From IMG/VR virus record IMGVR_UViG_2698536471_000005: a stretch of DNA of 10,192 bases; one strand, written 5' to 3'. Position numbers and translations under genes: made by a program. Of this stretch, positions 9,744 to 9,758 are shown piece by piece; the first letter of the stretch is position 1, and the number at the start of each line of letters is the position of its first letter. The notes beneath the pieces are model-generated. The model did no database searches and was not told the origin of the DNA. It was given only the letters and a program-made list of their open reading frames with translations. This DNA is from a virus (lineage: Duplodnaviria; Heunggongvirae; Uroviricota; Caudoviricetes).

Positions 9744-9758
9744 TGATAATAATTATCA
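9744..9758. promoter_or_regulatory. Fur-box-like 7-1-7 palindrome TGATAAT-A-ATTATCA
   Basis: Perfect inverted repeat tgataat a attatca, identical to the 7-1-7 core of the Fur-box consensus (GATAATGATAATCATTATC family). It lies in AT-rich DNA about 37 bp from cosN and about 150 bp upstream of the small plus-strand ORF. Possible overlapping minus-strand -35/-10 (TTGTGA-15nt-TATTAT) is weak. Confidence 0.3.

What the first reader, a model, noticed from the sequence alone, without database searches (positions are those of the whole stretch)
9744..9758. Perfect Fur-box-like palindrome 37 bp from cosN
TGATAAT-A-ATTATCA is an exact 7-1-7 inverted repeat matching the core Fur-binding motif. A perfect 15-nt match is unlikely by chance even in AT-rich DNA. 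It could place the small adjacent ORF, or transcription entering cos/Nu1, under iron control. Iron regulation of a gene next to a phage packaging site is not something I know to be described.
Basis: inference. Interest (0 to 1): 0.5.

Follow-up and report, generated by a model that had tools for sequence, protein, structure and literature searches.

The report
Known Fur box beside phage cosQ
The palindrome is a real, consensus binding site for the host iron regulator Fur next to the phage DNA-packaging site; the same site is already documented in E. coli K-12 cryptic prophages and also occurs in phage lambda, so it is not new, and its purpose is still unclear.

Summary
TGATAATAATTATCA at 9744-9758 is the only such match in the window (expected 0.01). 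It lies 5 nt from cosQ (9732-9738) and 36 nt from the cohesive-end sequence (9696-9707) of a lambda-like prophage.

The Fur reading is right, but the site is not undescribed. The same element sits at the homologous position in lambda, phage 434 and the K-12 cryptic prophages Qin and DLP12. The Qin site ("nohA") was selected in vivo as a Fur site and shifted by purified Fur. The DLP12 site ("nohB") is identical to the window over the central 19 bp and scored 25.3 bits, among the strongest Fur clusters in K-12 (Chen 2007). Fur ChIP-exo peaks fall on the equivalent box in CFT073 and O157 Sakai prophages, where terminase and head genes rise 2-4 fold without fur (Gao 2023). K-12 shows no peak and no derepression.

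I found no paper discussing the following. Among 30 unrelated upstream contexts, 19 carry the box 4-7 nt before cosQ, including phi80 and N15. It travels with cos, not with the small DUF3950 (ylcI) gene.

The most likely action is Fur-Fe binding that weakly dampens transcription around cos in lysogens. A packaging role is not excluded. Verdict: already known, with modest interest.

The parts
9744..9758 (.). Fur box core, a perfect 7-1-7 inverted repeat TGATAAT-A-ATTATCA
   Evidence: It is homologous to the Qin nohA Fur site (gel shift, 22.3 bits) and identical over 19 bp to the DLP12 nohB site (25.3 bits).
9741..9763 (-). Extended conserved operator. In packaging orientation it reads G-Y-A-A-W-TGATAAT-Y-ATTATC-R-TTT and matches the 19-bp Fur consensus in 16-17 positions.
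   Evidence: Weighted profile over 19 independent upstream contexts. In 43 unique lambda-type sequences the arms are nearly invariant and the centre base varies freely.
9732..9738 (-). cosQ (GGGTCCT on the - strand), the packaging-termination subsite
   Evidence: Same heptamer and spacing as in lambda, where I place it at 48473-48479. It is annotated as cosQ in the phage 434 record.
9696..9707 (-). Cohesive-end sequence GGGCGGCGACCT (core of cosN)
   Evidence: identical to the 12-nt sequence in Qin, DLP12, phi80 and other lambda-like prophages at this position, 23 nt from cosQ. That it is the lambda cohesive end is from my knowledge of lambda.
9454..9695 (-). Presumed cosB region of this prophage, unrelated to lambda, Qin or DLP12 cosB
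   Evidence: Inferred. Homology to Qin and DLP12 breaks down to the left of about 9668. The region lies between cosN and the TerS start.
8974..9453 (-). Terminase small subunit (Nu1 family)
   Evidence: Pfam Phage_Nu1, E=5.8e-21. The start is taken from the RefSeq annotation of a 99.9% identical prophage.
7074..9002 (-). Terminase large subunit (gpA family), interrupted by a stop codon at 7875-7877
   Evidence: Pfam GpA_ATPase and GpA_nuclease. A single C-to-T difference at 7877 against the intact gene in NZ_AP042682 creates the stop.
9908..10026 (+). YlcI/YnfO-family (DUF3950) gene, transcribed away from cos and truncated after about 39 codons by the IS
   Evidence: The intact 61-aa homologue matches Pfam DUF3950 at E=9e-19. 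Homology to intact prophages ends at about 10025.
10024..10192 (+). Left end of an IS629/IS1203-like insertion sequence (runs off the window)
   Evidence: 94% DNA identity to the Sakai IS629 end. The OrfA N-terminus matches in 36 of 38 residues.

Best explanation
The palindrome is a genuine high-affinity operator for the host ferric uptake regulator Fur. It is one more copy of the already described 'nohA/nohB' Fur sites of the E. coli K-12 cryptic prophages Qin and DLP12.

It belongs to a conserved module, Fur box then a 4-7 nt T-rich spacer then cosQ then cosN. Lambda, 434, phi80, N15 and many prophages share this module whatever lies upstream of it.

Shown, for homologous sites: Fur binds the sequence in vitro and occupies it in vivo in some strains.

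Inferred: in an iron-replete lysogen, Fur-Fe2+ dimers sit on about 25-30 bp abutting cosQ. There they weakly repress or block transcription that starts in or passes through this AT-rich region, towards the terminase and head genes and towards whatever gene lies on the other side. Low iron or loss of Fur gives a few-fold rise. In this window the element is probably a relic, because the prophage has a nonsense codon in the large terminase gene and an IS in the neighbouring gene.
For: Sequence:
- Perfect 7-1-7 match, unique in the window.
- The central 19 bp are identical to the DLP12 site. Chen et al. 2007 scored that site at 25.3 bits, one of the three highest scores in their table of Fur clusters in K-12.

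Binding:
- The Qin site differs only in the centre base and one flank base. It was recovered by in vivo Fur selection and shifted by 150 nM Fur.
- Chen's coordinate 1634624 maps exactly to the palindrome centre, L003 position 2101.
- A ChIP-seq summit at 1634625 was reported at nohA and listed among Fur-bound operons.
- Fur ChIP-exo peak P53 in CFT073 (1424699-1424711) lies on GTGATAATTATTCTCG, 5 nt from cosQ.
- Peak P90 in Sakai lies on TGATAACCATTATCA next to cosQ of Stx1 prophage Sp15, after a +126 coordinate offset that I checked against the stx1 and cirA boxes.

Expression, as log2 fold change of fur deletion over wild type:
- CFT073: C_RS07340 +2.33, C_RS07365 +1.57, C_RS07370 +2.13.
- Sakai: ECs2961, ECs2962 and ECs2963 at +1.1, +1.6 and +1.05.

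Conservation:
- 19 of 30 independent upstream contexts have the box 4-7 nt from cosQ.
- In 43 unique lambda-type sequences the arms are nearly invariant and the centre base is free.
- The consensus extends to a third hexamer, as in the classical 19-bp Fur box.
Against: - No binding or expression experiment exists for this exact locus.
- In K-12 MG1655 and W3110, Fur ChIP-exo lists no peak at either prophage site.
- nohA, nohD and ydfO are not derepressed in the MG1655 fur deletion. In W3110, ynfO, ylcI, ybcV and nohD go down, at counts below 30.
- The 2-4 fold rises in Sakai and CFT073 could reflect general prophage induction in a fur mutant; ECs2976, upstream in Sp15, also rises (+1.05).
- No convincing promoter is tied to the box. 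Promoter-like matches overlapping it are weak, occur in both directions, and follow from its TATAAT-like sequence.
- A purely transcriptional role does not obviously explain why the box stays glued to cosQ in phages with unrelated neighbours.
Confidence: 0.7

Rival explanations
1. The box serves DNA packaging, not transcription. The packaging motor moving towards the terminal cos meets the box immediately before cosQ. A tightly bound Fur dimer pair there could act as a brake or architectural mark that helps terminase recognise cosQ and cosN and end packaging, much as IHF assists at cosB. This would link packaging efficiency to iron status.
For: - The box keeps a near-fixed place 4-7 nt upstream of cosQ in 19 unrelated contexts and travels with cos, not with neighbouring genes.
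- BLAST homology of distant phages begins exactly at the box.
- In N15 and phi80 the upstream gene is co-directional and ends at the box, so there is no divergent promoter to control.
- The extended operator reaches to within 1-2 nt of cosQ.
- The Feiss laboratory's working cos fragment (lambda 48446-182) includes the box.
- From memory, not checked here: slower translocation suppresses cosQ mutations.
Against: - 11 of 30 contexts have cosQ without any box, so it is dispensable.
- The spacer varies from 4 to 7 nt, which argues against a phase-dependent contact.
- fur is not mentioned among lambda host-dependency genes in a Keio screen or a CRISPRi screen.
- From memory: saturation mutagenesis confined cosQ to 7 bp.
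- No paper in the library links Fur and cosQ.
Confidence: 0.1
2. Fur binds, but the site has no selected function. It is a neutral passenger of the cos module, or a decoy site whose occupancy has no consequence.
For: - K-12 shows no expression change and no ChIP-exo peak.
- Many phages lack the box.
- The whole cosN-to-ylcI region is 90-99% conserved in close relatives, so conservation there says little.
Against: - The consensus is kept perfect or nearly so in lineages whose cosQ-cosN spacer and flanks have diverged strongly (N15, phi80, mEp043, CP-1639).
- The only freely varying position is the centre base that Fur does not read.
Confidence: 0.12
3. The palindrome is the operator of a phage-encoded dimeric DNA-binding protein, for example the adjacent DUF3950 (YlcI/YnfO) protein. 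Its resemblance to a Fur box would then be incidental.
For: - All 64 loci with a divergent ylcI gene within 700 nt have the box.
- By inspection, the DUF3950 sequence looks like a small DNA-binding protein; this was not tested.
Against: - 42 loci (35 unique sequences) have the box without a nearby ylcI, including N15 and phi80.
- Fur binding to the Qin copy is experimentally shown.
- ChIP-exo finds Fur on a box in CFT073, where the neighbour is an unrelated gene.
Confidence: 0.04
4. The palindrome is an RNA-level or promoter element: a weak AU-rich terminator hairpin followed by U4 on the late transcript, or simply a -10-like promoter element.
For: - On the - strand the RNA can form a 9-bp A-U hairpin followed by UUUU.
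- In two other contexts (14 loci) a strong intrinsic terminator occupies the same place abutting cosQ.
- A TTGTGA-18-TATCAT promoter-like match overlaps the box.
Against: - Folding energy is not better than shuffled sequence (z -0.6 and -0.8).
- There is no Rfam match.
- Conservation follows the DNA dyad with a free centre base, not stem pairing with a free loop.
- Promoter-like matches are weak and non-directional.
Confidence: 0.04

Closest known systems
Fur sites upstream of nohA (Qin) and nohB/nohD (DLP12) in E. coli K-12 (Vassinova & Kozyrev 2000; Chen et al. 2007, PMC2189734)
   Same: Homologous DNA at the same place, 233 nt upstream of the Nu1-like gene between cosQ and the DUF3950 gene. 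The DLP12 site is identical to the window over the central 19 bp. The Qin site differs at the centre base and one flank base.
   Different: Those papers treat the sites as promoter-region sites of nohA and nohB and do not relate them to cos. This window is a different prophage with another TerS and cosB type, an IS in ylcI and a nonsense codon in TerL.
Fur ChIP-exo targets 'nohD' in CFT073 (peak P53) and ECs2960-2964 in O157 Sakai (peak P90) (Gao et al. 2023, PMC10164565)
   Same: The box sits at the same distance from cosQ. Fur occupies it in vivo under iron-replete conditions, and the terminase and head genes are counted in the Fur regulon.
   Different: Those boxes are degenerate (1-2 mismatches) and lie in other contexts: no ylcI, and Sp15 has a different cosN region. 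The paper's main text never mentions phage or prophage.
Classical Fur operators of iron-uptake promoters (19-bp GATAATGATAATCATTATC; 7-1-7 reading tGATAATnATTATCa)
   Same: Perfect 7-1-7 core, 16 of 19 matches to the 19-mer, and a third hexamer conserved across contexts.
   Different: The box does not overlap a demonstrated promoter. The nearest start codons are 150 nt away (ylcI) and about 290 nt away (TerS). It lies inside a packaging site.
Host-factor sites in lambda cos (IHF sites I1 and I2; TerS sites R1-R4; cosQ)
   Same: It is a host-protein binding site embedded in the cos region and inherited with it.
   Different: It is not cosQ or R4, since it lies 5-6 nt upstream. The window has no IHF consensus at all. 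No packaging role has been shown, and 11 of 30 cos contexts lack it.
Fur-regulated stx1 promoter of Stx1 phages
   Same: It is another Fur box carried by lambdoid prophages. In Sakai Sp15, both the stx1 box and the cos box give ChIP-exo peaks (P91 and P90).
   Different: The stx1 box controls a defined moron promoter with a large iron response. The cos box has no defined target.

Membership tests
E. coli Fur operator (Fur box) | Match to the 7-1-7 or 19-bp consensus | tested here: met
   15 of 15 positions of TGATAATNATTATCA. 16 of 19 positions of GATAATGATAATCATTATC on the + strand, by inspection. The central 19 bp equal the DLP12 site, scored at 25.3 bits by Chen et al..
E. coli Fur operator (Fur box) | Direct binding by purified Fur | not testable with these tools
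   Not tested for this locus. The homologous Qin (nohA) oligonucleotide shifted with 150 nM Fur.
E. coli Fur operator (Fur box) | In vivo occupancy by Fur | tested here: inconclusive
   From published data only. Peaks lie on homologous boxes in CFT073 and Sakai, and the Qin fragment was recovered by in vivo selection. No ChIP-exo peak is listed at either K-12 site.
E. coli Fur operator (Fur box) | Fur- or iron-dependent expression of an adjacent gene | tested here: inconclusive
   2-4 fold derepression in fur deletions of CFT073 and Sakai. None in MG1655, and decreases in W3110 at very low counts.
E. coli Fur operator (Fur box) | Overlap with a promoter | tested here: inconclusive
   One 9-of-12 promoter-like match (TTGTGA-18-TATCAT) reads towards cos. 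Similar weak matches occur in both directions in most contexts. No transcription-start data were available.
Lambda cos subsites (cosQ, R sites, IHF sites) | Being cosQ itself (GGGTCCT, 23 nt before the cohesive end) | tested here: not met
   cosQ is the separate heptamer at 9732-9738. The palindrome lies 5 nt further upstream.
Lambda cos subsites (cosQ, R sites, IHF sites) | Present wherever the cos type is present | tested here: not met
   11 of 30 independent cosQ-cosN contexts lack the box.
Lambda cos subsites (cosQ, R sites, IHF sites) | Match to the IHF consensus WATCAANNNNTTR | tested here: not met
   No match anywhere in the window.
Lambda cos subsites (cosQ, R sites, IHF sites) | Required for cos cleavage or packaging termination | not testable with these tools
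   This needs phage genetics. The key papers (PMC1461673, PMC47553) are not held.

The most novel reading that the evidence does not exclude
The Fur box is a functional part of the cos module. Fur bound immediately upstream of cosQ acts on the DNA-packaging machinery, as a brake or landmark for the translocating terminase, or it insulates cos from transcription. Iron status would then tune packaging termination or terminase expression in lambda-like phages. This would be a second host factor at cos after IHF, in the best-studied packaging system.
Probability: 0.1. Interest if true: 0.7.

Novelty: already known. Interest (0 to 1): 0.3.

Why it matters
As a Fur site this adds nothing new. It is another copy of the nohA/nohB sites found in 2000-2007 and again in ChIP-exo data from 2023.

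What may be worth a specialist's attention is the context. A consensus Fur operator abuts cosQ in lambda itself, and also in 434, phi80, N15 and many prophages. It is inherited with cos across unrelated flanks. I found no paper that mentions Fur and cosQ together.

If Fur affects terminase expression or packaging termination, iron availability in the gut could influence the release of lambdoid phages, including Stx phages. The question is cheap to test with existing lambda genetics.

Tried and rejected
- The genome-contig scan with GGGTCCT-N23-GGGCGGC was too unspecific. It returned 120 chance hits in GC-rich genomes, and the single Klebsiella hit was also chance.
- The first viral-contig scan had a spacing error of one N and found nothing. 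The corrected scan worked.
- The key cosQ papers (Wieczorek & Feiss 2001; Cue & Feiss 1993) and the supplements of Chen 2007 and Beauchene 2015 are not held. What I say about cosQ mutagenesis and kinetic suppression therefore rests on memory.
- RNA readings were rejected. There is no Rfam match and folding is no better than shuffles.
- An IHF site was rejected: no consensus match in the window.
- A promoter overlapping the box could be neither shown nor excluded. The matches are weak and bidirectional.
- I first searched the ChIP-exo tables with NC_000913.3 coordinates, which was wrong because the data use version .2. I repeated the search with .2 coordinates and still found no K-12 peak.
- Sakai peaks P36 and P50 are not at cos sites. 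P34 is a different Fur-like site in prophage Sp4.
- The source of the window was not pinned down. The best matches are O111 and bovine E. coli prophages without the IS.

Full report
**1. What is in the window**

The window is the head and terminase end of a lambda-like prophage, with the structural genes on the - strand.
- The small terminase subunit (Nu1 family) is at 8974-9453 and the large subunit (gpA family) at 7074-9002.
- To their right lie a cosB-like stretch and the cohesive-end sequence (GGGCGGCGACCT on the - strand) at 9696-9707.
- cosQ (GGGTCCT on the - strand) is at 9732-9738, and the palindrome TGATAATAATTATCA is at 9744-9758.
- A divergent DUF3950 (YlcI/YnfO) gene starts at 9908. 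An IS629-like element cuts it off at 10024.

The palindrome is exact and unique in the window. It is far beyond chance: 0.01 matches are expected at two mismatches or fewer. The observation and its stated distance from cosN are therefore confirmed.

**2. The same element in well-known genomes**

Aligning the region with the right end of lambda and with the nohA-ynfO (Qin) and ylcI-nohD (DLP12) intergenic regions of K-12 shows the palindrome at the homologous place in all of them.
- Lambda and Qin read TGATAATGATTATCA.
- DLP12 has exactly the window's version.
- By my count, the lambda box is at 48452-48466, just before cosQ at 48473-48479.
- Phage 434 carries the window's version, and its record annotates the heptamer as cosQ.

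**3. It is already a published Fur site**

Chen et al. 2007 (PMC2189734) give these results:
- Vassinova and Kozyrev (2000) recovered the nohA region by in vivo selection for Fur sites.
- Their information-theory model finds sites of 22.3 and 12.6 bits at 1634624 and 1634630.
- A nohA oligonucleotide is shifted by 150 nM Fur.
- nohB holds a 25.3-bit cluster, one of the three highest scores in their table of Fur clusters in K-12.

I converted the coordinates myself. nohA starts at 1634391 in their version and at 1636367 in NC_000913.3. Their site then falls on L003 position 2101, which is exactly the palindrome centre. The nohB coordinate 579824 plus an offset of 777 gives 580601, the centre of the DLP12 palindrome. 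That is 233 nt before nohD, the same distance as in Qin. This step is my inference; their table prints -133.

The window and DLP12 are identical from 12 nt upstream to 11 nt downstream of the centre. Myers et al. 2013 (PMC3688515) also list a ChIP-seq summit at 1634625 for nohA among Fur-bound operons.

**4. In vivo data from other strains (Gao et al. 2023, PMC10164565, supplements)**

CFT073:
- Peak P53 (1424699-1424711, iron-replete) lies on GTGATAATTATTCTCG, 5 nt before cosQ of a prophage.
- Flanking genes are listed in the Fur regulon. The log2 changes (fur deletion over wild type) are C_RS07340 +2.33, C_RS07365 +1.57 and C_RS07370 +2.13.

O157 Sakai:
- Peak P90 (2918933-45 in NC_002695.1) falls on TGATAACCATTATCA next to cosQ of Stx1 prophage Sp15.
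- This holds after a shift of about +126 between the two record versions, which I checked against the stx1 and cirA boxes.
- ECs2961, ECs2962 and ECs2963 rise by +1.1, +1.6 and +1.05.

Against a clear regulatory role:
- MG1655 and W3110 show no peak at either prophage site.
- There is no derepression in K-12. In W3110, ynfO, ylcI, ybcV and nohD fall, at counts below 30.
- The Sakai rise may reflect general Sp15 induction, because ECs2976 also rises.

**5. What the box is linked to**

I anchored on cosQ and cosN and compared phage records with 120 IMG/VR contigs.

Among 144 cos sites there are 30 unrelated upstream contexts.
- 19 contexts carry a box with three mismatches or fewer, 4-7 nt (mode 5) before cosQ.
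- Boxes are perfect in lambda, 434, phi80, mEp237 and mEp043.
- There is one mismatch in HK225, Stx1 phages, PhiR5_1 and CP-1639.
- N15 reads CGATAACTATTATCG.
- 11 contexts lack the box. Two of these (14 loci) have a strong intrinsic terminator abutting cosQ instead.

BLAST homology of distant phages begins exactly at the box.

The link to the small ORF is one-sided. Every locus with a divergent ylcI has the box (64 loci). But 42 loci have the box without ylcI. In N15 and phi80 a co-directional gene ends at the box. The box therefore travels with cos, not with the small ORF.

The context-weighted profile is G-Y-A-A-W-TGATAAT-Y-ATTATC-R-TTT. It reproduces the classical 19-bp Fur box including a third hexamer. 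Within 43 unique lambda-type sequences the arms are almost invariant, while the centre base varies freely. This is the pattern expected for a dyad-symmetric protein site.

**6. Alternatives examined**

- RNA structure: no Rfam match, and folding is no better than shuffled sequence.
- IHF site: no consensus match in the window.
- Promoter: only weak matches in both directions, which are inherent to the TATAAT-like box.
- Operator of the DUF3950 protein: unlikely, because the box occurs without that gene and Fur is found on it.
- Packaging role: attractive because the packaging motor meets the box just before cosQ. However, the box is dispensable in nature, its spacing varies, and fur is not mentioned among lambda host-dependency genes in two genome-wide screens.
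- No paper in the library mentions both cosQ and Fur.

**7. Verdict**

What it does is unsettled. The most likely action is that Fur-Fe2+ binding mildly dampens transcription around cos in lysogens. This step is inferred and supported only by 2-4 fold effects in two pathogenic strains.

The conserved coupling of the box to cosQ across lambda-like phages appears not to have been discussed. It gives a modest, testable question.

In this particular window the prophage looks defective, with a nonsense codon in TerL and an IS in ylcI. Any function here is probably vestigial.

Noticed in passing
window 7875-7877 (- strand): The large terminase gene carries a premature stop codon. A single C-to-T difference at 7877 against a 99.9% identical prophage in NZ_AP042682 creates it, so the prophage probably cannot package DNA.
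   Followed up: partly
window 10024-10192: An IS629/IS1203-like element (94% identical to the Sakai IS629 end) is inserted in the DUF3950 (ylcI) gene. The stop codon of the truncated ORF comes from the first bases of the IS.
   Followed up: yes
window 9454-9695 compared with L003 and L004: The cosB region and TerS type of this prophage are unrelated to those of Qin, DLP12 and other lambda-type cos sites. The segment from the box through cosQ and cosN to about 30 nt beyond the cohesive end is shared, so there is a mosaic joint inside cos.
   Followed up: partly
L001 (lambda NC_001416, about 48304 leftwards on the l strand): Lambda itself encodes a DUF3950/YlcI homologue (MSTKNRTRRTTTRNIRFPNQMIEQINIALEQKGSGNFSAWVIEACRRRL...). 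It is not annotated in the reference record.
   Followed up: partly
L005 (CFT073 1423654-1424600): In the CFT073 prophage the genes beside the cos Fur box are a 'TonB family protein' and a small ORF that appears to start with a signal peptide (probably C_RS07340, +2.33 log2 in the fur deletion). This looks like an iron-related moron next to cos.
   Followed up: partly
L146, L147, L175, L177 and five more IMG/VR contigs: Nine contigs hold two cosQ-cosN sites in opposite orientation; in L146 I estimate them to be roughly 0.5 kb apart and facing each other. Neither site has a Fur box, and one is preceded by an intrinsic terminator. They may be satellite (PICI)-type arrangements.
   Followed up: no
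L146 4120-4160 and similar loci; L191: In two contexts a strong intrinsic terminator (GCCGGAGAAATCCGGC followed by T8) abuts cosQ where other phages have the Fur box. This hints that limiting transcription into cos may be the common theme.
   Followed up: partly
PMC3688515 Table 4 (K-12 coordinate 1634625): Ten 'FNR' ChIP-seq peaks without FNR-dependent expression all sit on strong Fur sites, including the Qin box, which has no FNR-like half-site spacing. Antibody cross-reaction with Fur seems possible.
   Followed up: no
L261 (Sakai Sp4, 1174247-1174266): Another Fur ChIP-exo peak (P34) lies in a lambdoid prophage on a 15-of-19 Fur box (GTAAACGATAATCAATATC) near ECs1077, which is +1.54 log2 in the fur deletion. 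It is not at cos.
   Followed up: partly
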